Source of the DNA: an uncultured bacterium
Lineage (GTDB): Bacteria; CG03; SLGR01; JAGXOG01
Assembly: GCA_964476445.1 (NCBI GenBank)
Contig: CAYZAK010000001.1
Coordinates: forward strand, 8,351-72,350
Direction of reading: 5' to 3'
Length of the DNA: 64,000 bases
The translations under genes were made by a program, and so were the position numbers. The notes below the pieces were generated by a model. That model saw only the letters and a program-made list of their open reading frames with translations. It made no database searches and was not told the DNA's origin. Positions 33,105-64,000 of this stretch are shown here, one piece after another. The number at the start of each line of letters is the position of its first letter. Position 1 is the stretch's first letter.

Positions 33105-33106
33105 AA

Positions 33107-42444: not shown

Positions 42445-42700
42445 CTTATTATCATCAGTTTACCGGTTTTCCGGTTCCCGCCGCTTTTTATATGATAGAT
42501 ATAAGTCCCGCTGGCCACAGTCGCTCCCCGGGTATTTTCCACCGGATACCAGTTGTAAATTCCCGGCTGGGGCGCCTGGGCGTCAGAATGTTTCAGCGTT
42601 TTAACCACCCGCCCGGAAAGAGTGTATATTTCAATTTCGCATTCTGCAGGCAGATATCTGAAAGTAATACCGTCCCGGGGGGCGCCAGTTGGCCTCTCGG
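42441..42700 (-). other. T9SS-type C-terminal sorting domain (CTD) of the 1915-aa protein
   Basis: Terminal ~80 aa with the IY.LSGR.V...G.Y.W...G..VASG.Y.Y.I..G...GKL pattern ending in basic residues. Confidence 0.55.
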
Positions 42701-48224: not shown

Positions 48225-48540
48225 TTACCTTATTATGGCTATCCGCCGGGTCTTTTCCACCGTTCCTTCGTCGGATTTTACCACTATTCGGGCCAGGTAC
48301 CCACCTTTAGCCACGTCCTGACCCCGCTCGTTTACGGCGTACCAGGGGAAACTGTTGTGTCCCTGCCGACCGCCGTTCTCCCCGGCGTCAAATTCCCAGT
48401 ATTTAACCAGATACCCCATCATATCGTACAGATATACTTCAACATTGGCGTCCTGATTAAGAATGTAGGTTATCTTAGTCTTCTCGGCGCCCAAATCAAA
48501 CCGGGCGGGATTGGGATAGTTGGATACCTCGCTTACAACC
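48225..48540 (-). other. T9SS-type C-terminal sorting domain of the giant adhesin
   Basis: Last ~100 aa SNYPNPARFDLGAEKTKITYILNQDANVEVYLYDMMGYLVKYW...GGYLARIVVKSDEGTVEKTRRIAIIR: NP.NP start, Y.Y.D..G..V, G.Y..R pattern of Por_Secre_tail-like CTDs. Confidence 0.6.
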
Positions 48541-51500
48541 TCATCGGGCATTCCGGTAACCGCAGGTTCGGAAATTTCCGACCACGGTCCCCAGTTTCCG
48601 GCGTTATCCCGGGCCCTTACCCGGTAGTAATAGAAATGGCCGGGATCTTTTTCTTCAATGAAATAACTGTTATTATCCGAAGAAACATAAGCTACTGTCT
48701 GCCAGTCAGGTGAAGTATCTCTTCTTTCCTGAACTTCATACCGGGCGACCCCGCTTTCCGTTTCCGAAGCATCGTCCTGGGCGTCATCCCAGCTTACGTT
48801 ATAAGAGACCATGGGTTTATCCTGTCTTTGCTGATCGGGAACGGGTTTACCGGGTTCGGTCGGCGGATTCAGATCCACTCTGAAACTAGCTTCCCCGTGC
48901 CCCGGCGACCAGACCACGTTGCCTTCGTCATCCTGGGATGCTGTTCTTACACGGAAAGTATAAATTTCACCGTGTCTTAAAGATAATCCGTGTAAAGTAG
49001 CTTCGGCCGAAGACCATCCCTCGGAATCGGACGTTTTACCCAGGTCTCTAAATTCGGCACCGGCGGCAGAATAAAGATTATGGGTAATACCTTCTTCAGA
49101 AGTGGTATGAGATCTCCAGTTGGCACGGACCGTAGTGGGAGAATTTATCCACTCTTCCACGTCTACCTCCGGTATAGTGGGAGCATACTCGTTTCTTATG
49201 AGCATGGCCGCCACTTCAAAAAACGGTTCCTTTTTCTCTCCGGTAATTATTCTCTGCTGGGGAGTTATATTTAAATTTGTGGTTATATCCGACTCCAGTC
49301 GGAGACCGATTAATCCGTTCACCCGAGCGGCGTGAGCAACATCAAAAGTCAGGTAATAGATCTGATACTGAGCGGTTATCACATTACCAGTAGTTAAATC
49401 TATCCTGGCCGCGCCGGCTTCAAAAATGTCATCGCCGGAAGTTACAAGCATATCTTTAACCGGGTCGAACTCCCCGTCTCCGGTGGTATCCCGGTACATC
49501 TTTATAATGTCTATACCGGTATCGTCAAGATCGCCGGTTTTTAAAAACCGAAGATAATTCAAAGTGGGTCCACCATCGGCGCCGGCTGCGGTTTGGGTCG
49601 CCACCCGGACTCTGAATTCAGCCATGGTTACATCCCTCTCATTCTGTCTGGCCCCCGCCGGAGAAACATCCACCGGCTCAAAATCAATTTTAATCGGATC
49701 TATAAAGGCTTCTTCGCTTTCTACAGGGTAAATCTCAGGTTGTTCGGCAATCTCATTGTTACCGCTGATTGAGAATATTCCGGGAGAAGTAATCCGGGAG
49801 CCGGGGGCATGCTCCGGTTCAGCTTCCACTGCAATATCGTAAACAATAAAGTACCGTCTTGCCCGCGAACCTATAGTCTGTATGTGTTCTTTAGGGAAGG
49901 TTATATTCACATCTCTTCCTTCAGAAAAAACTTCTGTGGAAAGAGTTATCAACCGGTCCGCTCCGGGTTCAAAAATACCGTTATTGTTGGAGTCATAGTA
50001 TATCTTAACCGCTTTAATATCATCTATTATGCTTTCACCGGTAAGTTCTATTCTAACCCCGTACCAGTCGGCTTCGGCAGAAGGTATATAGGGATCCGGA
50101 TTTCTGGTGGTAAGAGTGAACTGGTCCATAAGGACATCGCCCTCTCCCTGGACAACCCGGGCAGGGGTCGGAGGACGTCCGTCCGCATCCCTTTCGGGAG
50201 TTAACCGTATAATATCTTCAAATTCGGTTATTTGGGCCAGCGAAGTAGTGAAATCACCCTCATCAAATTCTATCCAGTCATTATTAATTCCCGGTTGGGA
50301 CATATTCTCATCCACCGTAGATTCCCATAGCTGTTCCTGATATTCAACCACATCTCCTATCTGATAAGCCTCTTCTTCCTCTTCCGGTTCGCTCCACCGG
50401 GAATAATTTCTCCATCTCACTTCATCCCAGTCCCCAACATACCTAAAGTCATCGGTATTGAAACGTATTCCAACCTCTCTTCCCACGCGGGCCTGGTTGG
50501 ACATTTCAAGGACAATAAAATATCTTTGAGGATTGGTATCTATTGTCTGATAATTCTCTTCCCTGAAATTGAGTTCGCAAACCCCGTCCACAAAAATATT
50601 CATGGCGTCGCTTACAAGTTCGGCGGTTTCCGGGTCAAAGACTCCTTCATCCTGGGTATCTTTGTAAATTCTGGCGCTGGAAATATCCGGGTCGGCGGCG
50701 TCTCCCTCTAAATGTATATCCATCCCGGTCCATATAGATGCATGGGCATCGGTCTCCAGCACAATTGTACCGGCCAGAAGTCTGCCGTAAGGATTGTCTT
50801 CAATTTCTTCGTATTCAATTTCTCCTTCCTCATAAAGGTCCCTTAAATGCTGAAAATACCGTACACTGTCTCCCTGAACTACTCTGAGCATTTCCCGGTC
50901 ATCGGGAGTTACTATCATGGTATCCTCTGTGGGATCAATCTGAATATGTCTGGTCTCAAATTCTATATCATCCACGGCATGAGGATAAGCTACCGTGAAG
51001 TATCCCCGGTCTCCGATTCTTAACCCCACTTCACTGTTATTGTCAGCGTCAGCGGAAATATCGGCTACTATAAACCAGAAGTTTTCCTCATCTGACCTAA
51101 TAATCTGACTTCCATATTGGTCGGTAAAATTCAGATTGACAAATCCGTCCCGAACTTCGCCTTCGGCCACCAGTTCATCCACATCCGGAGTGAACGGAGG
51201 TTCTTCCCCGGGGTCATGGGGGGACTCGTTCCGGTAAACAGCAACCCGGGAAAAATCGCTGTCTCTGGAATAATCGTTGCCCACTCTACGCAATCTCAAT
51301 CCCTCCCAATCCACGTGGTAACCGTCAACTTCCATATCCAGTGTGGCCATGTGAACATCTCTTGTCCCCTGAAATTCACGGACCGGAGCTTTGTCTGCAG
51401 GATCCACAGTTACTAAACTGGGCGAAGCTATTATAGTGGAAACCTGAGTGATATAAGGCAGATTTTCGTCGCTCATAGTATTGGGAGAAGATATGGAAAA

Positions 51501-54500
51501 ATTAGCCTGTTCATTAATAGACAGCTGAATAGTTCTATCAGGTACAGCGTGACGATCCAGGTCCAGGGAAATGATAAATGATTTGGGCAGAGGCTCAAAG
51601 CTGCCGTCAGGTTCGCCTAACATCTGGGCTTTATCTTCAGGTATCCTAATCCGGCATACTCCTTCGGTAAACCTGTTCCCGGTAGATATTCTTACATCAC
51701 CGGTATTAATCCGGCCGGTCAGATCTTTATCCCACCACAGGGTGACGTTTTCTATGTCCTCATCGGAGGCGGTACCCTCCTGGAAAAGTACCAGGGCGGG
51801 TTCATTTTCTGCTTCGTTATCCATCCAGTGAGCATAAGAAATTTTTGTTTCAAAATTAAGCCGTAAAGTGGGCATATCAGTTCTGTTCTGGATAAAAAGC
51901 CCGTCCTGTACCCCGGTATCCGGATCGGTAATCTGGTAAGAAATATCCGTGGGCTCGACAGTAACGGTATCCGGATAGGGATTCACTATTTTTTCAGAAA
52001 CATCAATTGGAATCTGAGCATCTGAAACCTGATTGGGATCCGTCACAGTAAAATAATCCGTATCGGCTATTCTTATACCCAGTGATTCATCTTCCGGAGC
52101 GTAAGGATTAAGATCTATAGTCACCAGATAACGCCTTGGATAACCTGGAGTTCCACTGTCTCTTATATCCTGGTGGTTGTCTTCGTCAAATTCCATAAAA
52201 GTTGTCGAAGAACTGAATACGTCGGCTCCCTCTGATATAAGCCTATCTGCCAGTCCCGTGGGACTATTGGTAGTGGTATTAACCACCGGCTGGCCGGCAG
52301 CGTCCGTAGAACCGGATACCCACCACCAGACCTTGACTGCGTCAACCCATTCATCGGTAAGGGACCCGGTCTTATCCACCCGGAGACCGGTCCATATTAC
52401 TGAGTTTGCATCCGAACGTAAATCCAGTATTGAATATGCAGCGTTCCGGGCACCCTGTCTTATATTGCCCATTGTAGAATCTCTGGCTATAAGCAAAGTA
52501 TCTTCGGTGGGCTGAATCTCAGGCTGGGGTGTATCTTCATCCGCAGGCATAGGAGCGGGAAAGGTATCTTCTTCACCGGGATCCTGAACCCCGTCTCTGT
52601 TTTTATCGTTAAAATCCAGAACTCTGTTTTCTCCTTCATCGTCCCTGGCTATAACTCTGTCGGGAGAATCAATCCTTATACCCACTTCTGCTCCCGGAGT
52701 GGCCGCAGGGTCAAAATCTAGAGCCACAAAATAGGTCTGGGTAGACTCTCTTATGGTCTGGGGCCGTTTTTCAAATTCTCCGTCCACGTAGTGCCCTATA
52801 TCAATCATAGCCACTCCTTCTATTTCGGCACCGAACCTATCGTGACCGGAACTAATAATTTCATCGGCTAAGGGTTTAAAATCCTTATCTCCCGTCGCGT
52901 CCCGGAAAATTTTTATAGCCCGGATATCGTCATCACTAACTCCGTCTCCACGCAGGGTAACTCTTAACTCAGTCCAGTCAATAGTATACCTGGTGGTAAC
53001 CATATCGAAGGCCATAAAACCTACATCTTCTTCAGCCTGTCTTACCGTATCGGTATCTTTTATAAGAGACCAGGACGGCATAACAATATCTCCGGGCGCA
53101 ATTCTCACCGTAACTGTGGGAGTATTAATATCAAAGTTATTGTCAGCTACTTCGGTACCTCTCCATCTTCCGGAGGCTGAAAAATATCTTTTTTCCCAGT
53201 GCAGGTTCAGGTAGTTATCCGGTTCGGCGTCATAGGCCATATCCACGGTTATAAAATAGTGTCTGGCACTTTGACCTATATATTGGGGATGACCGGTATT
53301 TTCCTCCAGATCCAGTATGGCAAACCCGTTCTGAAAAGTTCCCGAAGAGAGCAAAGTTTCCGGAGACGAACCATCAAGATTATTGGGGTCGTCCGGTTCC
53401 GGCGGAGTAAATGCTCCGTCACCGTCATCCAGCCATATTCTGACAGCTATTACATCTTCATCGGGAACCGTACCTTCCAGATCCACCCTCATTTCCGACC
53501 ATTCGGCAGTTCCGGTGGTGGTAAAAATATCCAGCCGGTCCATTAAAGCGTTTGTATGATCCTGGAAAAGATCGTCAACGGTCATTCTTTCCCCGGTCAT
53601 TGCGTCCGTGTAGGGCCGTACTATGGCCCCGGTCACGGTAAGCTCATCGGATTCGCCGTATATTGTATCGTCTTCTGAATCGGTCATCTGTATAACTATG
53701 GGCTCAACCCCCACCGCTTCGTCGGTAACTACATCGGCTCTTATTTCAGCGGTCAGTTCGCCGGGCTCCCAGAATTCGTGCCCCACCGAATTTGCAAAAT
53801 CATAAGTTTCCGTCTGGCTTCCGTCTATCGTAAATATAGGACGTCTCTCCTCGGGATAACCGGGCGCTACTATATTAAAGGTAGCCTTTCCCACATAGTA
53901 ATGCCAGGTATCCGTTGAACCATAAGGTTTATTGGGATCCGGATGTCCGGATGCATGGTTCCCGTAGGTATCCTTCGCGGTTATGTCCACTCCTTTATTC
54001 CGGTACACTGTAGCGTAATTGTTATCATGTAAATCCAGTTCAAACTCCACCGGATCGGCCGGATATACGTTTACAACCTGGCTGGCCTCTTCCCAGCCCC
54101 GGTAAGGATCTTCGGATACCGTGACCTTATTTTTGCCCGCCACACGCGAGGTATAGTAAAATGAGGAAGAATGACTTCCCCCGGGAATTGAAATAACGCT
54201 AACGCCCCAGTTTTCACCGCCATCAGTGGAAAAATTCGCGCCCGGATCTTCGATTCCGGGTGGACCCGTGGCATCCAGACTCAGATCCACCGATTCTTCC
54301 ACACGGGAATAGTTGCCGTATTTATCCCTGGCCTGAACGGTGATTCTATAATCTTCCGGATTGTACTGAGTGTAATCGGAATACTCCGGAGATACTATTA
54401 TATTCCGGGTGGAAGTAATTATCTCCAGCTGGGTTATTTCTCCTCCTACCACTTCAACTTCCTGACGGCCCCAGTTCCAACCTCCGGCAGCCCTTTCGGC

Positions 54501-57500: not shown

Positions 57501-60500
57501 GGTGGAGGCAGTATCTTCGGCAGTAACCGTAAATCCCGTATCATTGGCGGTTTTAAATATTACTGTAAAATCAGTAGTTCCGCCGGTCAGGATCTTCTGG
57601 TTTTCTATAACTTTGCCGTATTGATCAGTTACGGTAACTAAGACTTCAGGAGCGGCGCCGGTAACGTGGTTCCACCAGGTATCCACTGCCTCCACGGTTA
57701 CTTCAAACTCCTCCCCGGCGGTCTGGGGAGCGGGTTCGTCGGTACGCCCTTCAGATCCGGTATTACCGGGTTGAGGTTCGACCCCGGGAACCAGTACTCT
57801 CAATCGCTGGGCGACATTGGGATCAACGGTTACCTCTGATGAAGTATAATTGACCAGGTCCGAATGTTCAGCAGTGACCATAGAAATTCCCGCGGTATAT
57901 AAAGTTATAGGTACCTGCGCCGTACCACCTTCAACATTTACCGGACCGGGATCAACATCGTAAAGATCGCTGGTATATACCTCCACTTCTTCGGTTACAT
58001 CGGTAATATTCCAGAACCGGTCGGTAATACTAACCGTGGAATAAAAGACCTGGCCGGCTACCTGGTCATCCGGATCTATACCGGAAACTTTTCCGTAAGG
58101 TTCCTGAGAATTCTTAACCTCCGGTTCGTCGGCATTACCGGGCAGTGCTTCTTCACCTTCTAAAAGAACCTGCAGTCTGGCCGGAGAGGCGGCATCAACC
58201 TGTACTACAGAAGAAGTGGACGAACTGTAATATCCTCCGGTATCCACCGCGGTAACCGTCCAAGTAGACGCGGCAACCAGGGGCATATCAAAATCCCTGT
58301 AACCGTCCGAGGTGAGAGACCGGGCCGTTGGCCTTTTGGCGAAAGGATCCTCCGGATACACTCTTACCGTGGGATTGGGATCAATATCTTCGCCTTCAAC
58401 AACATTCCATACAGAATCGGTCAGGTACACCCTGACAGTAAAATCTTCACCGGCGGTCTGGGGATCAATTTCTCCGCCGTCGTGACCCACACCGGGAACG
58501 TTTTCCTGGTAGGGGTGTATCAGAGCCTGCAATCTTTCCGGGGGCCCTGCTTTAACCGGAACTTCCCGGGATATATCCCCGGTAAGATCAGTCCCGTCAT
58601 CGGTAGATACATACACTGTCCAGCCCGAATAATCCTTGGTAATTAAAGTAAGACCGTCCTCATCGGACCCAAAAACATATCTGCCGTCAAACAAAGCGGC
58701 CCGGTCAGGGTCGTAACCGGCGGCATTTTCATCATCGGACCAGATACGGATAATATTGTCGGCATCGTAGTCCCTATTCCACCATTCATCCACCGCCATC
58801 ACTTCAACTTCAAATGATTCTCCGGCGGTCTGAATTTCCGGCTCCCCGGTCCGGCCGTACGGAGCTTCGGAAACGGGAGAATTTTCCCAGCCCCCGGGCT
58901 GATGTTCAACTCCGGGAACTAAGACAATAAGTTTTGTGGTTGTAGAAGCGGTAACTTTCACCGGTTCTGTAGTATAAGAATCCAATTCCCCGTCAGCATG
59001 GATAGCCCTGACCCAGGATGTTGCCGCTCTTTTTAGGGTAATTTCAAAACTATCATATCCGTCAATTAGATATTTTTCAGCCGGTTCTATATCGTGGGAG
59101 TCATACGTTTCTATATCCACCAGGGGCTCATAATCCGAATTGATATTCCAGTGATTGTCCACCGCATATACATCCACTTCAAACGGCGCGCCGGCAACCT
59201 GTTCTTGGACTTTTCCTACCTTTCCCGTATCCGTACCCGGTTCATAGGTTTCCCCGGGTAAAATAACCAAGAGTTTTTGTGCAGAATCGGGATCAACCGG
59301 AATTCTTGCCGATTGAGAGGATAAAAGAATATCTTCGGTATCTTCCGCCCTTATCCACCATTCTGTATTGGCCGTCTCAAAAGTGACTGTGAAAGTAGAC
59401 TTACCGCCCATTAAATATCTATCTTCTATAACAGTTGTATTTGGATCTTCGGTTATTAAACTAACCGTGCCTTGAGCTTCTTCATCTAAATTCCAATGTT
59501 CGTCGACCGCCCGTACAATGGCAGTAAAACTCTGTCCGGCAGTCTGCTCTTCGGGCTCACCTATAATCCCATATTCTGTGCCGGGTAAATATTCCTGTCC
59601 GGGAACTTCAACCGAAAGTTTTACCGCCCCGGCCGGGCCGGTGTAAACTGTGGAAGTACTGCTGTAAAGATTATAGTCCGTATTCCATTCATTAGCAGAA
59701 ACTTTATTGTACTGATTGGCAGTCTTTAATACCATGGTAAATTCCGTCGTTCCTCCTATAAGCGTTCCGGTTGAGGGAAGAACGGCGTTATCATCGGTGG
59801 AAGTTATCCTGACCGCCGCCGTAGTATCGGTAATATTAAAGTCCGAGTCCACCGAATAAACATCAAAAGTAAACTCTTCTCCCGCAGTCTGGGTATCGGG
59901 CTGACCTTCTTTCCCAGTGGGATAATTCCTAGACGGGGTATGCTCTTCTCCCGGAAGAACAGTCATCAACGCGTAAGGTTCGCCGGCCTCGGTATATATT
60001 CCTGAATGAGTTTCTCCGGTAAGCAGCTCGGGATAAATATCCTCCACGGTAAGATAAGAAGTAGTATGGGCCCGGGCCAGGGTGACATCGAAGAAAGCCC
60101 GGCCGTTGGTGAGCTCTTCAGCGGGGGGATCTATATAATCAGCTTCTAAATAATCGCTGGTAAGTTCCACTATTGTATCATCTTCTACGTCCGGAGTTAA
60201 GTTCCAGAATTCATCCACTCCCCTCACTTCCACTTCAAAAGAGATCCCGGCGGTCTGCATCCTGACTTCCCCGCCGCGACCGGCTTCCGCGACATTGCCC
60301 CCGTCCTCGTATTCATCGGGAGCGAGTATCTGAAGTTTGACCGGAGTATTGGGCCGGGTAAATATACCCCGGGGTGTAGTATAATTTTCTATTCCGGAGG
60401 CCACCGCATCTATAGTCCAGGTGGAGTGGGCCCGCCTAAAATCTATGTTAAACGTGGTCGCTCCTCCGGTAAGAGACCGGGTGGGCGGATGGGTATCGTG

Positions 60501-63500
60501 GGGATCCTGGGTATTTATACTGACCGAAGGTTCGGCGGTGGTCTGGTTCCAGAATTCGTCAGTAGCGTAAACGTCTATTTCAAAAGGTTCTCCGGCAACC
60601 TGGACTTCCGGTAACCCGGTCTTACCCTCAGAAGAACCTTCCACATAATCTTCGCCGGGTAACACAATAATTAATTTTTCCGTACCTGCCGATTCAACAT
60701 ACACCAGCTGAGAAGTGTGGGATTCAAAAGCCTGGCCGTCAACGGTAGACACCTTTACCCGCCAGGAATCATTGGCTGTTCTAAACTCATGACTTATTTC
60801 AGTCTCTCCCACAAAACTAAACTCTTCACTTGAATCATGGGGATCGGTAGAAGTTAGTTCCGCGGTAACTCCGGCCTGGGTAATGTTCCAGAAATCATCA
60901 ACTGTTCTTACGGTAATATTAAGAGGCTGACCGGCCACCTGACCTTCAGGAATCCCCGTACGGCCCGAAAGGCTTCCGGGATCCCCCCCTTCACCGGGCA
61001 GAAGAACCTGCAATTTTTCCGGATCGGCAGACTCAACCGGTATATAGGAAGAAATATTCGGCAGTATATTATCACCCTCGGATGTGGAAACCTTCACCTG
61101 CCAGGGGGCGTTTTCGGCGTCTTTTAAGATAATCTGAAAATCCTGTGTACCGTTAGTAAGGCCCTTTTCTGTTTCCGGAGACTCAAAATATTCATCTGTG
61201 GCCTCTATTTCTACTCCGGGATTGGCCGAAGGTTGTAGGTTCCAGAACTCATCCACCGCTGCTACATTAACCGTAAAACCGGAACCTGCCACTGCTTCCT
61301 GAACCTGTCCTGTCTTACCGGATACCGAACCCGGGGTTACACTTTCACCGGGTACCAGAGCCTGGAGTCTTTCAACTTCAGCGGGTTCCACAGAAATTTC
61401 AGATGATACATAATCATCCCAGCCGGCGGCCTGGGCGGCAACCGTCCAGGTAGCCTGAGAGTAATTTTGCCACTGGGTATTGTCCTTCCATGCAGTCTTT
61501 AAAATAATGCCGTAATCCCGGGTGCCGGTAACCATTCGTGATCGCGGCGAGGATTCGCCGGGCTCGCCGTGAGGATCATTTGCGGCAACGCTTACTTCTG
61601 CGCTGGAAGAATATTTTATATTCCAGTATTCATCGGTTAAATTTACGGTCACATCAAAATCTGCGCCGGCGGTTATTTCCTCTGTTTCTCCATCTTTGCC
61701 GGTTCCCGGACCGGGAACTCTTTCCTGACCCGGAGTAAGTACCTGAAGCCGGTTTCCGGCGCCCGGGTCAACGGTAACACCCACTGAATCGGTATCCAGA
61801 TCTCCGTCAACATTCACCACGGTTACAGTCTGAACCTCTGCCCGGTACATGGTAAAGAATCCCTCCCCGTGTCCGTCAACTAAGGGCATACTGGAAGATT
61901 TCGTACCGTAGGGATCAGTTATCTCAAAATCCACCCAGGGTTCAGCGTCTGTAGTTACATTCCAGTAATCGTCGGTAACGTAGATATCTGCGGTAAATTC
62001 CTCTCCGGCAACCTGGACTTCGGGCTCCTTCTCCGGGTTCTTTCCGGTATCCGTACCCGGAAAGGTCTCTTCCCCGGGAAGGACAAGCTGCAATTTTGAA
62101 GGAGTATCAGGTTCAACAGTAGCCGGATTATTCTGGGAGTGACCGGCAGGGAAATTATCATAACCGTCAGCGGCCGCCTCAACGTGCCAAGTATCTGCGG
62201 TCACCATAGTTACCAGAATATCTTCAGTTCCGGTTATTTCCAGACTTCCCGGATTATCAGCGTTGGGATCGGTAGTTGTAACATTTACCGTTCCCGTGGC
62301 CTGAGGCACTATATTCCAGTATTCGTCACATATATTTACCGTAGTGTAGAACGCGTCCCCGGCAATCTGGTTTTCAGGCATAGCCACCGTCTTACCGGAA
62401 TCCGTACCCGGATCGGTCTCTTCTCCGGGAAGGACAACCTGAATCTGTTCGGCAGTGGTGGGTTCCACGTTTATATTGGCCTGTTCGCCGTACACCGAGG
62501 GAGTGGCCGTATCATATACCAGCAAAAATTTGCGGGAGGACGGATCAATCGAAGCGGTCCGGAATCTGACAAGGTTGGTCAGAGTTATTATTCCTTCGTC
62601 TTCCTCGGGTACGAAGGTATAGGTAGCAACTTCCACGTCGTTCCCTTCTATTCTAAAATCCGATTCAGACCATTCTTCCTCATCACGTTCGGCGATCTGG
62701 TCCGGATCTTTAGTTCTGAACCTTACCGTCCCGTTGTAAGTAAGAGCAGTCTGCCCATCTCTGTCTAAGGCCTCTACGGTTATATGCTGGCGAGCGCCGG
62801 CCTCGACGGGATCGGAAATACCGGTCACCCTAAACTCTTCCGCGGGAAGAACAACCACAAAATCGGAGACATCCGGGGCGGTTTGAACATTACCGGCCAT
62901 ATCTATACCCCTGCTGCTCATCCTGTACTCCCGGCCGGTGACCCACATCTCAGAGGGAAAAGAATATGACCAGGTGCCTTCCTGCTCCCCAGATGGATAA
63001 TTATGAGCATCCATCCATAGTTCGGAACTGTCCGTCCATGTAGAACCATTCCAGTAGTAACTGTCCCCTTCCTGGGGATAATCATCTATTCTGAGGGAAA
63101 ATTCAACCTTATCTACCAGTCCCGGCGGCGTATCGGCCACTTCCCCGGAAAGCAATGTCAGGGCGTCCCGGTCTTCGGTAGCTTCGTCAGCCGGGCGGAT
63201 ATTTTCTGAAACCGGCGGAGTTTCGTCGTAAATCATTTCCACAGGACCCATCCACCCGGAAAGGTTGCCCACATTATCCTCAGCCCGGGTGTAAAACTCA
63301 TACACCCGGTTATCGTCCCAGGAAAGGTTGGCGTTAACATAACTCCAATTTGTGGTACCGGGTTCAATCCCGGTATCCAACGGCACCGGGTCTTCAGCCT
63401 GAAAACCCACTCCGTCAAACCAGTTTCCGGTGGCGCTGTCAAATATACTCAGTTCAACTTTCTCAACTTCGCTGGTTTCATCATGAGCAGTACCGTATAT

Positions 63501-63992
63501 AGTCTGTCCGTAAGAGTTGTAGTGGTTGCCGTCTTCCGGTTCGGTCACTGTTGAAAGCGGCGGCGTGTCGTCAAATAAAAACTCAATTTCAGCCACCTGG
63601 GACTGAATATTTTCAGGAGTTGCCGAATCTTCGGCATAAACTTCCAGACGATAAGTATTTCCCGATTCCCAGTCAAGATTGGTATCTATTCCCAGTCCTT
63701 CAGCATTCCACTCTATATCCGGCCCCTGGGATAGAAAATTGGTACTCCACCAGTTATCCGGACTTTCAGCCCAGTCTTCAAGGGCCCAGTAGTAAGTAGT
63801 TGAAGCGGTAATATCAGAAATACGTACTCTAACTCTTCTCACATCGCTTAACCCGTCGCTGGCCGTTCCGTGTATATCGGCGCCGGCAAGCTCAGGCAGA
63901 GTCTGGGCATCGGCCGGGTTTACAATTTCAGAATCGGGTTCGGTCATATCTATGGTAAACCGATGATGGTTCCGGTCCCCTTCCGCACCCAC
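48225..63992 (-). CDS. Giant (>5255 aa, 5' end outside window) repetitive surface adhesin-like protein with T9SS-type CTD
   Basis: ORF is open to the window edge (true N-terminus upstream of 63992). It contains 17 tandem ~112-aa repeats with motif [KR]LQVLLPGEE.PG...GKTG.P..Q.AG..F...V...D.[FW]WN and a second repeat family with motif L.G......DI..V.IY.D..GDG.FDP..D.L. It also has Big_1-like segments (DVTVTARDQFGNV) and two FN3-like domains. C-terminal CTD: VEVYLYDMMGYLVKYWEFDAGENGGRQGHNSFPWYAVNERGQDVAKGGYLARIVVKSDEGTVEKTRRIAIIR. Confidence 0.7.
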   Translation of the reverse strand: MGAEGDRNHHRFTIDMTEPDSEIVNPADAQTLPELAGADIHGTASDGLSDVRRVRVRISDITASTTYYWALEDWAESPDNWWSTNFLSQGPDIEWNAEGLGIDTNLDWESGNTYRLEVYAEDSATPENIQSQVAEIEFLFDDTPPLSTVTEPEDGNHYNSYGQTIYGTAHDETSEVEKVELSIFDSATGNWFDGVGFQAEDPVPLDTGIEPGTTNWSYVNANLSWDDNRVYEFYTRAEDNVGNLSGWMGPVEMIYDETPPVSENIRPADEATEDRDALTLLSGEVADTPPGLVDKVEFSLRIDDYPQEGDSYYWNGSTWTDSSELWMDAHNYPSGEQEGTWSYSFPSEMWVTGREYRMSSRGIDMAGNVQTAPDVSDFVVVLPAEEFRVTGISDPVEAGARQHITVEALDRDGQTALTYNGTVRFRTKDPDQIAERDEEEWSESDFRIEGNDVEVATYTFVPEEDEGIITLTNLVRFRTASIDPSSRKFLLVYDTATPSVYGEQANINVEPTTAEQIQVVLPGEETDPGTDSGKTVAMPENQIAGDAFYTTVNICDEYWNIVPQATGTVNVTTTDPNADNPGSLEITGTEDILVTMVTADTWHVEAAADGYDNFPAGHSQNNPATVEPDTPSKLQLVLPGEETFPGTDTGKNPEKEPEVQVAGEEFTADIYVTDDYWNVTTDAEPWVDFEITDPYGTKSSSMPLVDGHGEGFFTMYRAEVQTVTVVNVDGDLDTDSVGVTVDPGAGNRLQVLTPGQERVPGPGTGKDGETEEITAGADFDVTVNLTDEYWNIKYSSSAEVSVAANDPHGEPGESSPRSRMVTGTRDYGIILKTAWKDNTQWQNYSQATWTVAAQAAGWDDYVSSEISVEPAEVERLQALVPGESVTPGSVSGKTGQVQEAVAGSGFTVNVAAVDEFWNLQPSANPGVEIEATDEYFESPETEKGLTNGTQDFQIILKDAENAPWQVKVSTSEGDNILPNISSYIPVESADPEKLQVLLPGEGGDPGSLSGRTGIPEGQVAGQPLNITVRTVDDFWNITQAGVTAELTSTDPHDSSEEFSFVGETEISHEFRTANDSWRVKVSTVDGQAFESHTSQLVYVESAGTEKLIIVLPGEDYVEGSSEGKTGLPEVQVAGEPFEIDVYATDEFWNQTTAEPSVSINTQDPHDTHPPTRSLTGGATTFNIDFRRAHSTWTIDAVASGIENYTTPRGIFTRPNTPVKLQILAPDEYEDGGNVAEAGRGGEVRMQTAGISFEVEVRGVDEFWNLTPDVEDDTIVELTSDYLEADYIDPPAEELTNGRAFFDVTLARAHTTSYLTVEDIYPELLTGETHSGIYTEAGEPYALMTVLPGEEHTPSRNYPTGKEGQPDTQTAGEEFTFDVYSVDSDFNITDTTAAVRITSTDDNAVLPSTGTLIGGTTEFTMVLKTANQYNKVSANEWNTDYNLYSSTSTVYTGPAGAVKLSVEVPGQEYLPGTEYGIIGEPEEQTAGQSFTAIVRAVDEHWNLDEEAQGTVSLITEDPNTTVIEDRYLMGGKSTFTVTFETANTEWWIRAEDTEDILLSSQSARIPVDPDSAQKLLVILPGETYEPGTDTGKVGKVQEQVAGAPFEVDVYAVDNHWNINSDYEPLVDIETYDSHDIEPAEKYLIDGYDSFEITLKRAATSWVRAIHADGELDSYTTEPVKVTASTTTKLIVLVPGVEHQPGGWENSPVSEAPYGRTGEPEIQTAGESFEVEVMAVDEWWNRDYDADNIIRIWSDDENAAGYDPDRAALFDGRYVFGSDEDGLTLITKDYSGWTVYVSTDDGTDLTGDISREVPVKAGPPERLQALIHPYQENVPGVGHDGGEIDPQTAGEDFTVRVYLTDSVWNVVEGEDIDPNPTVRVYPEDPFAKRPTARSLTSDGYRDFDMPLVAASTWTVTAVDTGGYYSSSTSSVVQVDAASPARLQVLLEGEEALPGNADEPEVKNSQEPYGKVSGIDPDDQVAGQVFYSTVSITDRFWNITDVTEEVEVYTSDLYDVDPGPVNVEGGTAQVPITLYTAGISMVTAEHSDLVNYTSSEVTVDPNVAQRLRVLVPGVEPQPGNTGSEGRTDEPAPQTAGEEFEVTVEAVDTWWNHVTGAAPEVLVTVTDQYGKVIENQKILTGGTTDFTVIFKTANDTGFTVTAEDTASTGALDEDTSDPVPVQVGDPDRLQVLPEGVTGLPGSEDGREGSPETQVAGQVFPVTINLTDRHWNVVTTTSPVVELDSSDPHSDSYGYTAQSVHLENGTAEAFLTLVTAREGETTLTVEDDSGKLPPYESDESQPVDVVANEATQLRVLVPGLEADVGNSATGFSGDPDSQIAGEPVIAYLQACDDWWNVARSTAQVHATVDDPYGITPAPSTLSDGERNIDITFRTARNAGTTPDGGWTVELTDTAEKLEVGYTPEIEVYPNQFSRLQVVLPDEFPEPGSDDGIAGTPDIQRAGEGFDITVRAVDDYWNLVSTGPEVGLSSKDPQADLPSARVLTGGDRTFPDITLKTVLESNRIYADAVDGYGIIRATSSHQPLDPDYTDYLDVTGIQDTSAGSASDVTVTARDQFGNVADGGTVPEDRAYQGEVVFSADEDADWPGTTEAPGSGLPGNYTFTVEDEGVRTWDAGVTLRRAGDRTVRVEDSFYEFNGIYGEQTGIEISPGSVSRFTVFPMDPVDIPAGDTREIRAFATDNYYNTTIEGAEGLEVEISTYNISFTETLDIGNKNEGSVITPQTSVVDSSGMVRGISYTVSQYAGDEAIIDVSASTKPISGQSAWITSIGGVADYLIFEEGNPQFTAGDSPDVDIPYVLFRKDQYGNDAVTGDTRINIYTDSGSPWDVGSNVSPRHRFYDENNLPLTDNNNNGLQDILIPSGEYVREIYYYEEKASWDEVTMASHTITADANLGGTGDPHPPTGDGVYDVRVDPDDIMSINFDTGSMEMRAGNYSPQMRIRLYDDYGNVKPVTETVELTLDSDSSWCGFETNMGTFSYVDDWEPSRPKLYISTDSEKSLLPYQAEFNYLDHVRGNPRVDVSGPSEYKGAPVNWGSAQQVQQVDPADPDRLVYVSEPYTSEHPLVAGATSWRIDIEARDQYGNWSEVDYNEEINLYFKDAETGDSTSSDIYEFSKSSTNWVDIYPDNRVVMTTGTSRVSYYMKAYRSGTWEIEAERAAGGWNWGRQEVEVVGGEITQLEIITSTRNIIVSPEYSDYTQYNPEDYRITVQARDKYGNYSRVEESVDLSLDATGPPGIEDPGANFSTDGGENWGVSVISIPGGSHSSSFYYTSRVAGKNKVTVSEDPYRGWEEASQVVNVYPADPVEFELDLHDNNYATVYRNKGVDITAKDTYGNHASGHPDPNKPYGSTDTWHYYVGKATFNIVAPGYPEERRPIFTIDGSQTETYDFANSVGHEFWEPGELTAEIRADVVTDEAVGVEPIVIQMTDSEDDTIYGESDELTVTGAIVRPYTDAMTGERMTVDDLFQDHTNALMDRLDIFTTTGTAEWSEMRVDLEGTVPDEDVIAVRIWLDDGDGAFTPPEPDDPNNLDGSSPETLLSSGTFQNGFAILDLEENTGHPQYIGQSARHYFITVDMAYDAEPDNYLNLHWEKRYFSASGRWRGTEVADNNFDINTPTVTVRIAPGDIVMPSWSLIKDTDTVRQAEEDVGFMAFDMVTTRYTIDWTELRVTLRGDGVSDDDIRAIKIFRDATGDKDFKPLADEIISSGHDRFGAEIEGVAMIDIGHYVDGEFEKRPQTIRESTQTYFVALDFDPAATPGAEVGIRIDSPDRVIARDDEGENRVLDFNDKNRDGVQDPGEEDTFPAPMPADEDTPQPEIQPTEDTLLIARDSTMGNIRQGARNAAYSILDLRSDANSVIWTGLRVDKTGSLTDEWVDAVKVWWWVSGSTDAAGQPVVNTTTNSPTGLADRLISEGADVFSSSTTFMEFDEDNHQDIRDSGTPGYPRRYLVTIDLNPYAPEDESLGIRIADTDYFTVTDPNQVSDAQIPIDVSEKIVNPYPDTVTVEPTDISYQITDPDTGVQDGLFIQNRTDMPTLRLNFETKISYAHWMDNEAENEPALVLFQEGTASDEDIENVTLWWDKDLTGRINTGDVRISTGNRFTEGVCRIRIPEDKAQMLGEPDGSFEPLPKSFIISLDLDRHAVPDRTIQLSINEQANFSISSPNTMSDENLPYITQVSTIIASPSLVTVDPADKAPVREFQGTRDVHMATLDMEVDGYHVDWEGLRLRRVGNDYSRDSDFSRVAVYRNESPHDPGEEPPFTPDVDELVAEGEVRDGFVNLNFTDQYGSQIIRSDEENFWFIVADISADADNNSEVGLRIGDRGYFTVAYPHAVDDIEFETRHIQIDPTEDTMIVTPDDREMLRVVQGDSVRYFQHLRDLYEEGEIEYEEIEDNPYGRLLAGTIVLETDAHASIWTGMDIHLEGDAADPDISSARIYKDTQDEGVFDPETAELVSDAMNIFVDGVCELNFREENYQTIDTNPQRYFIVLEMSNQARVGREVGIRFNTDDFRYVGDWDEVRWRNYSRWSEPEEEEEAYQIGDVVEYQEQLWESTVDENMSQPGINNDWIEFDEGDFTTSLAQITEFEDIIRLTPERDADGRPPTPARVVQGEGDVLMDQFTLTTRNPDPYIPSAEADWYGVRIELTGESIIDDIKAVKIYYDSNNNGIFEPGADRLITLSTEVFSEGRDVNITFPKEHIQTIGSRARRYFIVYDIAVEAEPEHAPGSRITSPGIFSISGNNEIAEQPEIYPVESEEAFIDPIKIDFEPVDVSPAGARQNERDVTMAEFRVRVATQTAAGADGGPTLNYLRFLKTGDLDDTGIDIIKMYRDTTGDGEFDPVKDMLVTSGDDIFEAGAARIDLTTGNVITAQYQIYYLTFDVAHAARVNGLIGLRLESDITTNLNITPQQRIITGEKKEPFFEVAAMLIRNEYAPTIPEVDVEEWINSPTTVRANWRSHTTSEEGITHNLYSAAGAEFRDLGKTSDSEGWSSAEATLHGLSLRHGEIYTFRVRTASQDDEGNVVWSPGHGEASFRVDLNPPTEPGKPVPDQQRQDKPMVSYNVSWDDAQDDASETESGVARYEVQERRDTSPDWQTVAYVSSDNNSYFIEEKDPGHFYYYRVRARDNAGNWGPWSEISEPAVTGMPDEVVSEVSNYPNPARFDLGAEKTKITYILNQDANVEVYLYDMMGYLVKYWEFDAGENGGRQGHNSFPWYAVNERGQDVAKGGYLARIVVKSDEGTVEKTRRIAIIR
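49400..53600. repeat. Second family of ~8 tandem ~150-170 aa repeats with DxDGDGxFDP-like putative Ca-binding loops
   Basis: Recurring blocks MRVDLEGTVPDEDVIAVRIWLDDGDGAFTP, LRVTLRGDGVSDDDIRAIKIFRDATGDKDFKP, GMDIHLEGDAADPDISSARIYKDTQDEGVFDP, GVRIELTGESIIDDIKAVKIYYDSNNNGIFEP, LRFLKTGDLDDTGIDIIKMYRDTTGDGEFDP and others; coordinates approximate (+/-150 nt). Confidence 0.6.
56390..62450. repeat. Array of 17 diverged tandem ~336-bp (112-aa) domain repeats inside the giant adhesin gene
   Basis: Protein-level periodicity LQ[VA]L.PGEE...G..GKTG.P..Q.AG..F...V.A.D..WN recurring every ~112-127 aa from residue ~515 to ~2535 of the window-truncated translation; the copies are diverged at the nucleotide level. 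Confidence 0.8.
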
Positions 63993-64000
63993 TATTTCCT

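What the first reader, a model, noticed from the sequence alone, without database searches (positions are those of the whole stretch)
48225..63992. Window-truncated >5255-aa adhesin with two distinct internal repeat families, putative Ca-binding loops, FN3 domains and a T9SS CTD
The ORF is still open at the window edge, so the real protein is larger. It contains 17 tandem ~112-aa Ig-like repeats (conserved LQVLLPGEE…GKTG…QVAG…F…V…D.[FW]WN) and then a second set of ~8 repeats whose conserved core (IY.D..GDG.FDP..D.L) resembles EF-hand/thrombospondin-type Ca-binding loops. Two FN3-like domains and a Por-type CTD follow. The architecture is reminiscent of SprB-like gliding adhesins and RTX/BIg giant adhesins. 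Its GC content is visibly higher than that of the housekeeping genes in the window, driven at least in part by G/P/T/D/E-rich composition.
Basis: partly seen in the sequence, partly recalled or inferred. Interest (0 to 1): 0.6.

Follow-up and report, generated by a model that had tools for sequence, protein, structure and literature searches.

The report
Giant surface adhesin beside orphan motor
This is the last 5,257 residues of an enormous (over 8,258 amino acids) cell-surface fibre protein from an uncultured Elusimicrobiota bacterium. It is built from long runs of antibody-like domains, ends in a secretion and anchoring tag, and in several related lineages sits next to flagellar-motor-like genes, in a phylum whose members mostly lack flagella.

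Summary
Window 48225-63998 (- strand) is one ORF, still open at the window edge. It has 17 tandem Ig-like repeats, 8 larger beta-sandwich repeats, an FN3 region and a C-terminal sorting domain.

Corrections:
- The source contig,258 aa and itself starts inside the gene. A complete ortholog is 17,658 aa.
- A third repeat family (Big_7-like Ig) begins at the window edge. An ortholog has at least 32 copies.
- Only one FN3 domain passes Pfam.
- There are no RTX repeats.

Neither main repeat family matches Pfam or any PDB sequence. Family 2 occurs in about 1,600 protein clusters and carries a conserved DxDxDG-type loop. The 8 family-2 copies, the FN3 region and the tail form a conserved base, and the tail is the best-conserved part.

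The organism is an Elusimicrobiota MAG, outside the phyla where type IX secretion is known. Even so, the tail family passes the T9SS type-A model, and two PorV/PorQ-family barrels lie just downstream.

In 8 lineages the giant gene abuts a phylum-wide module: PorV-TPR, a FliF-FliG fusion, a coiled-coil protein, FlbD, MotA and MotB.

Best reading: a giant CTD-anchored adhesin. Open possibility: it is the working end of an undescribed motor-driven surface machine.

The parts
48225..63998 (-). Visible part of the giant gene: 5,257 codons plus stop, open at the window edge. The same gene is called as 8,258 aa on the source contig, which itself starts inside the gene.
62883..63959 (-). Three Big_7-like Ig units (aa 14-372). 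They are the visible end of a third repeat family. An ortholog (L040) has at least 32 tandem copies upstream.
   Evidence: Pfam Big_7 E 2e-10; own profile; L040 Pfam Big_7, Big_13 and Big_3_3
62508..62873 (-). Single Ig-like unit with an invasin-type 'ALDRDGQ' motif (aa 376-497).
   Evidence: Weak match to the family-1 profile; motif scan
56409..62507 (-). Family 1: 17 tandem Ig-like repeats (aa 498-2530), 113-132 aa each. No Pfam or PDB sequence match.
53631..56408 (-). Middle region (aa 2531-3456), apparently further Ig-like domains: four 'xRDxxGN'-type motif sites at aa 2569, 2694, 3091 and 3224, spacings of 125-133 aa where adjacent. It is 44-45% identical to orthologs.
49206..53630 (-). 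Family 2: 8 beta-sandwich repeats (aa 3457-4931), 155-200 aa each, with a DxDxDG-type loop. Each unit is positionally orthologous to the same-numbered unit in other giants.
48864..49205 (-). FN3-like stretch a (aa 4932-5045). FN3-like by pattern only; no significant family hit.
48549..48863 (-). FN3 domain b (aa 5046-5150). Passes the Pfam fn3 cutoff.
48228..48548 (-). C-terminal sorting domain (T9SS type-A / FlgD-Ig-like). It is the best-conserved part of the protein, 63-75% identical to orthologs.
42441..48188 (-). Second large secreted protein (1,891-1,915 aa): Ig_Rha78A_N, FG-GAP/VCBS repeats and a T9SS type-A CTD (23.4 bits against a cutoff of 23).
41371..42444 (-). 357-aa PorV/PorQ-family outer-membrane barrel (NF033709 99.8 bits against a cutoff of 90). 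Overlaps the FG-GAP gene by 4 nt.
41110..41150 (-). Terminator-like hairpin (17-bp stem followed by T8) between the adhesin module and the motor module.
39492..41165 (-). PorV/PorQ-family barrel (120.6 bits against a cutoff of 90) fused to a C-terminal TPR domain. It is the first gene of the conserved motor module. The true start is probably near 41090.
37543..39495 (-). Fusion protein of 650 aa: FliF C-terminal periplasmic domain, a TM segment, an acidic linker, FliG middle and C domains, then TPR.
33107..37426 (-). 1,439-aa Lys/Glu-rich coiled-coil protein, about 31% GC, no Pfam hit.
32883..33104 (-). FlbD (73 aa, PF06289).
31991..32878 (-). MotA. Best matches are flagellar stator models (MotP/PomA/MotA), not ExbB/TolQ. 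Has a poly-Lys C-terminal tail.
31155..31991 (-). MotB with plug, an Asp in 'TTYSDLVT' at the start of the hydrophobic segment, and an OmpA-like peptidoglycan-binding domain.

Best explanation
The ORF is the C-terminal 5,257 residues of a giant (over 8,258 aa) fibrillar cell-surface adhesin of an Elusimicrobiota bacterium.

Shown:
- The protein is a string of at least 39 beta-sandwich modules: Big_7-like Ig units, 17 family-1 Ig units, about 7 further Ig-like units in the middle region (estimated from its length and motif spacing), 8 family-2 units, the FN3 region and a C-terminal sorting domain.
- The C-terminal roughly 2,700 aa (middle region, 8 family-2 units, FN3 region, CTD) is a conserved, position-by-position orthologous base.
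- The N-terminal Ig arrays vary in number between lineages. Total lengths run from 3,471 to 17,658 aa.

Inferred:
- The protein is exported by Sec. Complete relatives that share the family-2 array, FN3 pair and CTD have N-terminal signal peptides.
- It crosses the outer membrane and is held there through its CTD by a type-IX-like route. The CTD would be recognised by PorV/PorQ-family barrels encoded immediately downstream.
- The conserved base, stiffened by Ca2+ bound at the DxDxDG loops, forms the cell-proximal stalk. The variable Ig arrays project outward, probably well over 100 nm, to bind particles or other cells.

Whether the fibre is passive or driven by the adjacent FliF-FliG/MotAB module is left open (see the novel case).
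For: Gene reality and size:
- 15.8 kb without a stop.
- 8,258 aa is called on ENA contig k141_484687, starting at contig base 3.
- Ortholog lengths are 17,658 aa complete, 3,471 aa, and over 4,266 aa.
- Locus L040 shows 7,284 codons open at both ends.

Module folds:
- Big_7 and fn3 pass Pfam cutoffs.

Extracellular character: only 5 Cys in 5,257 aa, composition rich in Asp and Thr and poor in Lys.

CTD:
- Matches the C-termini of the PorU, PorZ and T9SS-cargo models.
- Six homologous tails score 23.1-34.9 bits against the TIGR04183 cutoff of 23.
- Always sits at the extreme C-terminus and is the most conserved segment, 63-75% identical.

Partners: the 357-aa and 557-aa neighbours pass the PorV/PorQ-family model, and the neighbouring FG-GAP protein also ends in a type-A CTD.

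Conserved base:
- BLAST matrices for the 8 family-2 units against three orthologs are strictly diagonal.
- 83 of the 150 best family-2 proteins end in the same CTD type.
- Complete relatives begin with signal-peptide-like N-termini.

Ca-type loop: D 86%, [ND] 73%, [ND] 73%, G 67%, [DE] 81% over 1,177 copies.
Against: - The window copy of the CTD scores just below the curated cutoffs (21.7 against 23; Pfam 15-20 against 27).
- The domain is also FlgD-Ig-like, and that fold is not exclusive to secretion signals.
- T9SS is regarded as specific to the FCB superphylum (PMC12398890). No paper found links it to Elusimicrobiota.
- The neighbouring barrels pass only the broad PorV/PorQ subfamily model, not the PorV or PorQ equivalog models (29-86 bits against 220-250).
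- SprA/Sov, PorK/L/M/N and PorU could not be searched for in the genome.
- The N-terminus, and so the signal peptide, of this particular protein was not recovered.
- No binding target, Ca2+ binding or expression has been shown.
Confidence: 0.7

Rival explanations
1. Motor-coupled adhesin. The giant protein is the external working part of an undescribed trans-envelope machine derived from the flagellar motor. MotA/MotB/FlbD stators turn or push a ring of the FliF_C-FliG fusion in the inner membrane. The force passes through the periplasm to the PorV-family barrel via its TPR domain. That barrel holds the CTD of the giant fibre, which is thereby moved (gliding or a surface conveyor) or secreted. 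This would be functionally analogous to GldLM/GldKN/SprB but built from different parts.
For: - The module PorV-TPR, FliF_C-FliG-TPR, coiled coil, FlbD, MotA, MotB is conserved in order across Elusimicrobiota down to 26% FliG identity.
- The PorV-TPR and FliFG genes overlap by 4 nt in the window and are adjacent in every locus that shows both.
- The giant CTD gene lies immediately upstream of PorV-TPR in 8 lineages (L001, L005, L006, L007, L010, L014, L017, L019).
- PorV-family proteins are the CTD binders of T9SS (PMC8754138 and PMC9143113, listed).
- The FliG part is genuine: E 1.5e-40 to T. maritima FliG 1LKV.
- The FliF_C part passes Pfam PF08345 (25.9 bits against a cutoff of 23.8).
- MotA and MotB match flagellar stator models best, and MotB has the Asp expected beside its membrane segment.
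- Non-flagellated Elusimicrobiota are reported to carry motAB, flbD and fliG homologues whose role is unclear (bioRxiv 10.1101/2022.07.08.499144).
- The CTD is the most conserved part of the giant, at 63-75% identity, close to the 58-64% of FliFG.
Against: - A strong terminator-like hairpin separates the adhesin genes from the motor genes.
- Close relatives L003/L004, L013 and L015, and the loci of the more distant clades that include DNA upstream of PorV-TPR (L016, L020, L021, L023-L025, L027-L030, L036), have no detectable CTD gene in the DNA available upstream of the module. The link is therefore frequent but not obligatory.
- Adjacency is the only evidence. No interaction, structure or phenotype exists.
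- A distant FliF_C-FliG/MotAB locus sits beside type IV pilus genes instead, and the same preprint suggests a twitching link.
Confidence: 0.3
2. Passive coat or scaffold. The protein is a static surface layer, spacer or cellulosome-like scaffold rather than a specific adhesin. Its position next to the motor genes reflects only general clustering of envelope genes.
For: - No recognisable ligand-binding head domain lies in the visible part. All modules are generic beta-sandwiches.
- Elusimicrobiota carry many huge uncharacterised proteins (PMC11573180; bioRxiv 10.1101/2023.11.21.568195).
- The terminator-like site points to separate transcription from the motor genes.
Against: - Best fold matches for family 2 include Bap and Esp biofilm adhesin domains and lectin/CBM-like modules.
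- Best fold matches for family 1 include invasin, intimin and FdeC.
- Synteny with PorV-TPR recurs in 8 lineages.
- Variable N-terminal arrays on a conserved base are typical of adhesins under diversifying pressure (this last point is inference).
Confidence: 0.15
3. The C-terminal domain is just another Ig-like (FlgD-type) structural module, and the protein leaves the cell by a different route (type I, type V or unknown). In that case the 'T9SS CTD' label would be wrong.
For: - The tail hits FlgD models and FlgD_ig at similar weak scores.
- The window copy is below the TIGR04183 cutoff.
- The phylum is not known to have T9SS.
Against: - The domain is always the very last about 95 aa, ending ...KIAIIR or ...KIGVIH, in 83 of the 150 best family-2 proteins.
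- Relatives pass TIGR04183.
- The best hits are the CTDs of PorU, PorZ and T9SS cargo.
- Two PorV/PorQ-family genes are adjacent.
- No RTX repeats. No T1SS or autotransporter genes were identified among the window ORFs that were scanned.
Confidence: 0.12
4. Artefact: a misassembled repeat region or a pseudogene.
For: Giant repetitive genes often break assemblies. The ENA and NCBI contigs here end inside the gene.
Against: - 5,257 codons without a stop.
- The repeats are only 21-39% identical in protein, with no DNA tandem repeat.
- Orthologs from independent assemblies keep the same order, the same count of 8 family-2 units and the same tail.
- L040 is open for 7,284 codons.
Confidence: 0.01

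Closest known systems
SprB gliding adhesin with SprF (PorP-like) of Flavobacterium johnsoniae, T9SS type-B cargo
   Same: Both are very large repetitive cell-surface filaments with a C-terminal T9SS-type sorting domain, encoded next to a dedicated PorP/PorV/PorQ-superfamily outer-membrane barrel and associated with a proton-driven motor system (own knowledge; PMC9143113 and PMC9127263).
   Different: - The tail here is type-A/FlgD-Ig-like. No type-B model (TIGR04131) appears among its NCBIfam hits.
- The repeats are unrelated families with no Pfam match.
- The host is Elusimicrobiota, not Bacteroidota.
- The neighbouring motor is MotAB/FliG-type, not GldLM.
PorU-PorV and PorZ-PorQ attachment complex of Porphyromonas gingivalis
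   Same: The best sequence matches of the CTD are the CTDs of PorU and PorZ. These are held by PorV and PorQ barrels (own knowledge). PorV/PorQ-family genes are adjacent here.
   Different: - The neighbours reach only the subfamily cutoff, not the PorV or PorQ equivalog cutoffs.
- One of them carries a C-terminal TPR domain and is coupled to a FliF-FliG fusion gene.
- No PorU sortase was identified.
Invasin, intimin and FdeC Big_1 Ig-like arrays, and GH2 C-terminal Ig domains
   Different: No sequence-level match to Big_1 or any Pfam family. Those proteins are secreted as type Ve autotransporters with an N-terminal barrel. The anchor here is a C-terminal CTD.
Bap/Esp biofilm surface proteins and RTX/BIg giant adhesins (LapA, SiiE, MpIBP)
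Giant and huge proteins of Omnitrophota, Elusimicrobiota and other PVC-related phyla
   Same: Elusimicrobiota are reported as enriched in proteins over 5,000 and over 10,000 aa, largely uncharacterised (bioRxiv 10.1101/2023.11.21.568195; PMC11573180). This gene is one of them.
   Different: Those surveys do not describe this architecture. The West-Roberts preprint contains none of the terms FliG, MotA, PorV or 'type IX'.
Flagellar rotor-stator (FliF/FliG with MotA/MotB/FlbD)
   Same: The neighbouring module contains genuine FliF_C, FliG_M, FliG_C, FlbD, MotA and MotB homologues.
   Different: - FliF and FliG are fused.
- FliG_N and FliF RBM1/2 are missing.
- No other flagellar genes lie nearby.
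- The magnetotactic and most free-living Elusimicrobiota that carry motAB/flbD/fliG are reported to lack flagellar structural genes, although some Elusimicrobiota are predicted to be flagellated.
- The module adds a PorV-family barrel, TPR domains and a 760-1,660-aa coiled-coil protein.

Membership tests
T9SS type-A CTD cargo | Beta-sandwich sorting domain of about 70-100 aa at the extreme C-terminus | tested here: met
   The last about 105 aa match the C-terminal ends of the PorU, PorZ and T9SS-cargo models (E 1e-7 to 3e-8). The domain is terminal in all orthologs.
T9SS type-A CTD cargo | Score at or above the curated cutoff of TIGR04183 / PF18962 | tested here: inconclusive
   The window copy scores 21.7 against 23 (TIGR04183) and 15 against 27 (PF18962). 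Six homologous tails from the same family score 23.1-34.9, all at or above 23. The neighbouring FG-GAP protein scores 23.4.
T9SS type-A CTD cargo | Genome encodes PorV/PorQ-type CTD-binding barrels | tested here: met
   Two adjacent genes pass NF033709 (99.8 and 120.6 bits against 90). They fall below the equivalog cutoffs for PorV and PorQ.
T9SS type-A CTD cargo | Genome encodes the translocon and core (SprA/Sov, PorK/L/M/N, PorU sortase) | not testable with these tools
   Only this contig and 10-kb flanks of relatives were accessible. None of these genes was identified among the window ORFs that were scanned.
SprB-type (type-B CTD) gliding adhesin | Type-B CTD (TIGR04131) and SprB repeats | tested here: not met
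   An NCBIfam scan at E up to 1 lists no type-B model for the tail or the body. Pfam finds no SprB repeat.
RTX adhesin (T1SS) | GGxGxD nonapeptide repeats near the C-terminus, with adjacent T1SS genes | tested here: not met
   No GG.G.D match in 5,257 aa. No ABC/MFP/TolC genes among the window ORFs that were scanned.
Big_1 (invasin/intimin) Ig domain, PF02369 | Sequence match to the family profile | tested here: not met
Big_7 bacterial Ig domain, PF17957 | Sequence match above the gathering score | tested here: met
   41.4 bits against 24.1 for the N-terminal 500 aa. 90.4 bits in the upstream region of ortholog L040.
Fibronectin type III, PF00041 | Sequence match above the gathering score | tested here: met
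   26.4 bits against 25 for aa about 5066-5145. The preceding stretch has no hit.
EF-hand / thrombospondin type-3 Ca-binding repeat | Helix-loop-helix (EF-hand) or a TSP3 profile match | tested here: not met
   In the AF2 model the loop lies between two beta strands. No EF-hand or TSP_3 Pfam hit.
DxDxDG-type calcium-binding loop (motif class) | D-x-[DN]-x-[DN]-G with a downstream acidic ligand | tested here: met
   The family consensus over 1,177 copies fits. In this protein unit 7 (DSNNNG) fits exactly, units 1, 2, 6 and 8 approximately, and units 3-5 are degenerate. Ca2+ binding itself was not tested.
Flagellar FliG (neighbouring 650-aa protein) | FliG_N, FliG_M and FliG_C domains within a flagellar gene set | tested here: not met
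   FliG_M and FliG_C are present. The score is 154 bits against 226.7 for TIGR00207, covering profile positions 110-332 only. FliG_N is replaced by a FliF_C-TM fusion. No other flagellar structural genes lie nearby.

The most novel reading that the evidence does not exclude
The giant CTD-bearing fibre is the output element of a previously undescribed trans-envelope machine of Elusimicrobiota that re-uses flagellar motor parts. These are a FliF_C-FliG fusion rotor, MotA/MotB/FlbD stators and a giant coiled-coil protein. The machine is coupled through a PorV-family outer-membrane barrel with a periplasmic TPR domain. The motor would drive movement or secretion of surface adhesins, a third kind of motor-driven surface motility beside flagella and Bacteroidota gliding. 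This would explain the unexplained motAB/flbD/fliG genes of non-flagellated Elusimicrobiota.
Probability: 0.3. Interest if true: 0.9.

Novelty: new variant of a known kind. Interest (0 to 1): 0.62.

Why it matters
1. It gives a concrete architecture to one of the huge, uncharacterised proteins for which Elusimicrobiota are known. The plan is a conserved base of about 2,700 aa (middle region, 8 family-2 units, FN3 region, CTD) carrying variable Ig arrays.

2. It defines two domain families that are absent from Pfam. One of them is present in about 1,600 protein clusters.

3. It extends T9SS-type sorting domains and PorV/PorQ-family barrels to a phylum outside the FCB group. That raises the question of what translocon serves them there.

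4. It links, by conserved gene order, CTD-bearing giant adhesins to the orphan FliG/FlbD/MotAB genes of non-flagellated Elusimicrobiota, whose function the literature calls unclear. This turns an open question into a testable model: does a flagellar-type rotor-stator drive a surface adhesin through a PorV-like barrel?

Tried and rejected
- A whole-protein homology search failed twice, once for a query over the 5,000-aa limit and once by time-out. Searches with aa 1-860 and with the last 662 aa returned only 4 and 2 short fragments. The giant proteins themselves are evidently not retrievable from that index.
- An exact-product look-up of the 1,915-aa neighbour failed because the called start differs.
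- A scan of GTDB species genomes with the N-terminal 500 aa found nothing.
- The true N-terminus could not be reached. The ENA contig starts inside the gene. A 161-kb NCBI contig carrying the same FliFG protein exists but was hidden as a 'similar place'. The one metagenome hit (L040) is open at both ends.
- Pfam, NCBIfam and PDB sequence searches gave no family for either main repeat. A weak GEVED hit (E 0.025) was not pursued.
- The AlphaFold-database fold library was unavailable.
- The RTX, EF-hand, thrombospondin and SprB type-B assignments were tested and rejected.
- Papers combining Elusimicrobia with FliG or type IX secretion, or describing FliG-like non-flagellar systems, gave nothing beyond the Uzun et al. 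preprint. The Méheust and Herlemann papers were either not held or silent on motility.
- A broadened CTD profile found no CTD gene upstream of the motor module in the distant clades.
Full report
**1. What is in the sequence**

Window 48225-63998 on the - strand is a single reading frame of 5,257 sense codons ending in a stop at 48225-48227. It is still open at the window edge.

I built a profile from motif-anchored units. It finds exactly 17 contiguous copies of the first repeat (aa 498-2530, numbered from codon 63998; i-E 3e-27 to 1e-43). A second profile finds exactly 8 copies of the other repeat (aa 3457-4931; i-E 3e-47 to 9e-56).

Family-1 units are 113-132 aa and 27-39% identical to each other. 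Family-2 units are 155-200 aa and 21-29% identical. Tandem Repeats Finder sees no repeat at the DNA level inside the gene. These are old, diverged duplications and not an assembly artefact.

For family 1 it is LQVLxPGEE..PG...G..G.P..Q.AG..F...V..VD..WN. For family 2 it is W.GLR..L.G...D.DI.AVKIY.D...DG.F.P..D.LIS.

Three Big_7-like Ig units lie at aa 14-372 (Pfam Big_7 E 2e-10).

Between the two main arrays lies a region of about 930 aa that appears to hold further Ig-like modules. Four 'xRDxxGN'-type motif sites fall at aa 2569, 2694, 3091 and 3224.

After family 2 comes an FN3-like stretch with no significant hit, then one FN3 domain that passes Pfam (26.4 bits against 25), then the C-terminal domain.

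**2. Composition**

The gene is 49.3% GC, against 35-43% for the housekeeping genes of the window. Amino-acid composition explains part of this: Lys is 1.9% against 9.5%, and Asp, Thr and Pro are enriched.

GC3 is also higher (0.47 against 0.27-0.39), and four-fold degenerate sites are GC-richer (Pro 0.78 against 0.53, Thr 0.61 against 0.43). Synonymous codon usage therefore deviates as well.

GC3 declines stepwise along the cluster: giant, then FG-GAP protein, PorQ-like, PorV-TPR, FliFG. I have no explanation for this.

**3. True size and source**

An exact-sequence look-up of a neighbouring protein located the source: ENA metagenome assembly ERZ27266011, contig k141_484687, 81,439 bp.

By coordinate arithmetic the window is bases 9004-73003 of that contig, reverse-complemented. 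The giant gene is called there as 8,258 aa beginning at contig base 3. The contig itself therefore starts inside the gene.

Orthologs found through synteny have the following lengths:
- 17,658 aa, complete, starting about 3.1 kb into a 70-kb Logan contig.
- 3,471 aa in GCA_016934855.1.
- Over 4,266 aa, cut by the contig end.

A soda-lake sediment contig (L040) is 64% identical over the window's first 500 aa. It is open for 7,284 codons at both ends of the fetched locus. It contains at least 32 Big_7-like units followed by at least 22 family-1 units.

The unseen 3,001 residues of the present protein are therefore most likely more Big_7-like Ig modules. This is inference. The true N-terminus was not recovered.

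**4. What the modules are**

Neither main repeat matches Pfam (even at E up to 1), NCBIfam or any PDB sequence.

A profile search of 1.84 billion representative proteins finds family 2 in 1,608 proteins at E up to 1e-3, and in 243 at E up to 1e-30. Most are 1,000-7,200 aa long with 8-10 copies.

This is a DxDxDG-type calcium-loop motif lying between two beta strands. It is not an EF-hand or a thrombospondin repeat. In this protein, units 3-5 have lost it. Ca2+ binding is inferred, not shown.

There are no RTX nonapeptides, and only 5 cysteines in 5,257 residues.

**5. The tail**

The last about 105 aa match the C-terminal ends of the NCBIfam models for PorU, PorZ and a T9SS-dependent protease (E 1e-7 to 3e-8). 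The match to the T9SS type-A sorting-domain model is 21.7 bits against a cutoff of 23. FlgD Ig-like models hit at similar weak levels.

The tails of orthologs and of more distant family-2 giants are clearly homologous to it (E 1e-31 to 1e-51). Six that I tested all reach the type-A cutoff, at 23.1-34.9 bits.

The domain is always the very end of the protein. 83 of the 150 best family-2 proteins end in it.

It is the best-conserved segment of the giant. Identity to orthologs is 63-75% for the CTD, 47-69% for the FN3 region and 38-63% for positionally matched family-2 units.

No type-B (SprB-type) model appears among its NCBIfam hits.

**6. A conserved base with variable heads**

BLAST matrices of the 8 family-2 units against the 8 units of three orthologs are strictly diagonal. 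Each position is individually conserved and the number is fixed.

The middle region is also conserved, 45% identical over 887 aa to the L009 ortholog.

By contrast, the N-terminal arrays differ greatly in number between lineages.

More distant complete relatives (4,000-7,000 aa) begin with signal-peptide-like N-termini. They have FG-GAP/VCBS, LamG-like or Kelch-like heads, then about 10 family-2 units, two FN3-like domains and the same tail type.

The architecture is therefore a common cell-proximal stalk and anchor carrying interchangeable distal parts.

**7. Organism and context**

Homologues of the neighbouring FliG-like protein are annotated as Elusimicrobiota. A scan of GTDB species genomes returned 31 loci, almost all from Elusimicrobia or Elusimicrobiota MAGs.

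The rest of the window is housekeeping: ligA, rib genes, thi4, HcyBio, pgk, gap, a Bat operon and pilT. Every ORF is on the - strand.

Directly downstream of the giant gene lie, in order:
- A 1,891-1,915-aa FG-GAP/VCBS protein ending in a type-A CTD (23.4 bits against 23).
- A 357-aa PorV/PorQ-family barrel (99.8 bits against 90), overlapping the FG-GAP gene by 4 nt.
- A strong terminator-like hairpin (17-bp stem followed by T8, 41150-41110).
- A PorV/PorQ-family barrel (120.6 bits against 90) with a C-terminal TPR domain.
- A 650-aa protein, overlapping the previous gene by 4 nt.
- A 1,439-aa Lys/Glu-rich coiled-coil protein.
- FlbD, MotA and MotB.

The first 237 aa of the 650-aa protein pass Pfam YscJ_FliF_C (25.9 bits against 23.8). 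A transmembrane segment and an acidic linker follow. Then come genuine FliG middle and C-terminal domains (E 1.5e-40 to T. maritima FliG 1LKV), and finally TPR repeats.

MotA and MotB match flagellar stator models best, not ExbB/TolQ. MotB has an Asp in 'TTYSDLVT' at the start of its hydrophobic segment, matching (from my own knowledge of E. coli MotB) the position of the proton-binding Asp.

**8. Synteny**

The module PorV-TPR, FliF_C-FliG-TPR, coiled coil, FlbD, MotA, MotB keeps its order across Elusimicrobiota down to 26% FliG identity.

A giant gene ending in the conserved tail lies immediately upstream of PorV-TPR in 8 lineages: L001, L005/L018, L006, L007/L009, L010, L014, L017 and L019.

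It was not found in the DNA available upstream of the module in L003/L004, L013, L015, L016, L020, L021, L023-L025, L027-L030 or L036.

The FG-GAP gene and the 357-aa barrel come and go together. They are present in three lineages and absent in five. This suggests that the 357-aa barrel serves the FG-GAP protein and that PorV-TPR is the neighbour common to the giants. This pairing is inference.

**9. Literature**

T9SS is described as specific to the FCB superphylum (PMC12398890). I found no paper connecting it with Elusimicrobiota.

Elusimicrobiota are known to be enriched in proteins over 5,000 and over 10,000 aa, and these remain uncharacterised (bioRxiv 10.1101/2023.11.21.568195; PMC11573180).

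A preprint on magnetotactic Elusimicrobiota notes that these bacteria, like most free-living species of the phylum, lack structural flagellum proteins yet carry motAB, flbD and fliG homologues. Where there is no Gld system it calls their role unclear (bioRxiv 10.1101/2022.07.08.499144). The same preprint predicts that some Elusimicrobiota are motile by flagella.

The absence of flagellar genes in the Elusimicrobia genomes compared there is also stated in PMC7031533.

None of these papers mentions the FliF-FliG fusion, the PorV-family partner or the link to CTD-bearing giants.

**10. Interpretation**

The best-supported reading (confidence 0.7) is a giant fibrillar cell-surface adhesin. It would be exported by Sec and then passed across, and held at, the outer membrane through its type-A-like CTD by PorV/PorQ-family barrels.

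The conserved base would form a stalk, probably stiffened by Ca2+. The variable Ig arrays would be the distal, binding part.

What is shown:
- The gene is real.
- The module folds.
- The tail's family membership.
- The adjacent PorV/PorQ genes.
- The conservation pattern.

What is inferred:
- The export route.
- The orientation.
- Ca2+ binding.
- Adhesion.

The most interesting reading my evidence does not exclude (probability about 0.3) is that the fibre is the output of a new trans-envelope machine built from flagellar rotor and stator parts and a PorV-like barrel.

For it:
- The conserved adjacency in 8 lineages.
- The tight coupling of the PorV-TPR and FliFG genes.
- The known CTD-binding role of PorV-type proteins.
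- The tail being as well conserved as the motor proteins.

Against it:
- The terminator-like site between the two gene sets.
- Lineages in which the module stands alone.
- A distant FliF_C-FliG/MotAB locus beside type IV pilus genes.
- The complete lack of physical evidence.

**11. Verdict**

The feature is real and correctly located. It is a new variant of a known kind, namely giant CTD-anchored surface adhesins. It has two uncatalogued domain families, and it occurs in a phylum where such a system is unexpected.

Its value lies mainly in the testable connection it offers to the orphan motor genes of Elusimicrobiota.

Noticed in passing
window 31155-41165 (- strand): A conserved Elusimicrobiota module: PorV-family barrel with TPR, a FliF_C-TM-FliG_M-FliG_C-TPR fusion, a 1,439-aa coiled-coil protein, FlbD, MotA and MotB. 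It occurs in a phylum whose non-flagellated members are reported to carry such genes with no known role.
   Followed up: partly
window 41110-41150 (- strand): A strong terminator-like hairpin (17-bp stem followed by T8) lies inside the annotated 5' end of the PorV-TPR ORF. The true start of that gene is probably the Met near 41090. The adhesin genes and motor genes are likely separate transcription units.
   Followed up: partly
window 33107-37426 (- strand); repeat at 33773-34175: A 1,439-aa Lys/Glu-rich coiled-coil protein at about 31% GC with no Pfam hit. It contains a 204-bp unit repeated twice at 97% identity. Homologues of 760-1,660 aa occupy the same slot in every motor module.
   Followed up: partly
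window 31991-32878 (- strand): MotA carries a C-terminal tail of about 40 aa that is almost pure Lys/Arg. The FliFG fusion has a long poly-Glu linker. A charge complementarity is possible but was not examined.
   Followed up: no
window 41371-48188 (- strand): The FG-GAP/VCBS protein (type-A CTD) and the 357-aa PorQ-like barrel behave as a cassette. Both are present in L001, L005 and L006, and both are absent in L007, L010, L014, L017 and L019.
   Followed up: partly
window 31155-63998: GC3 falls stepwise along the cluster: giant 0.47, FG-GAP 0.44, PorQ-like 0.43, PorV-TPR 0.40, FliFG 0.37, coiled coil 0.29. Housekeeping genes are 0.27-0.39. The cause is unknown.
   Followed up: partly
L008 10001-21401 (JGI 3300033233 contig Ga0334722_10001243): A distant FliF_C-FliG fusion (466 aa) followed by MotA, two MotB paralogues, a TPR protein, PilC (T2SSF) and four prepilin-like genes. 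Here the orphan rotor-stator sits beside type IV pilus genes rather than adhesin genes.
   Followed up: no
window 13592-15534 and 19892-27266 (- strand): A PilT-family ATPase lies next to a cyclic-nucleotide-binding protein. A complete Bat-type operon is also present (MoxR, DUF58, BatA, BatB, TPR, BatD).
   Followed up: no
window 1-64000: Every ORF of 120 aa or more that looks like a gene is on the - strand. GC skew of the + strand is negative throughout, so there is no strand switch in 64 kb.
   Followed up: no
proteins P0101 and P0120: Some family-2 proteins end not in the CTD but in hydrophobic-plus-basic tails resembling PEP-CTERM-type sorting signals. The family-2 stalk may therefore be used with more than one anchoring system.
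   Followed up: no
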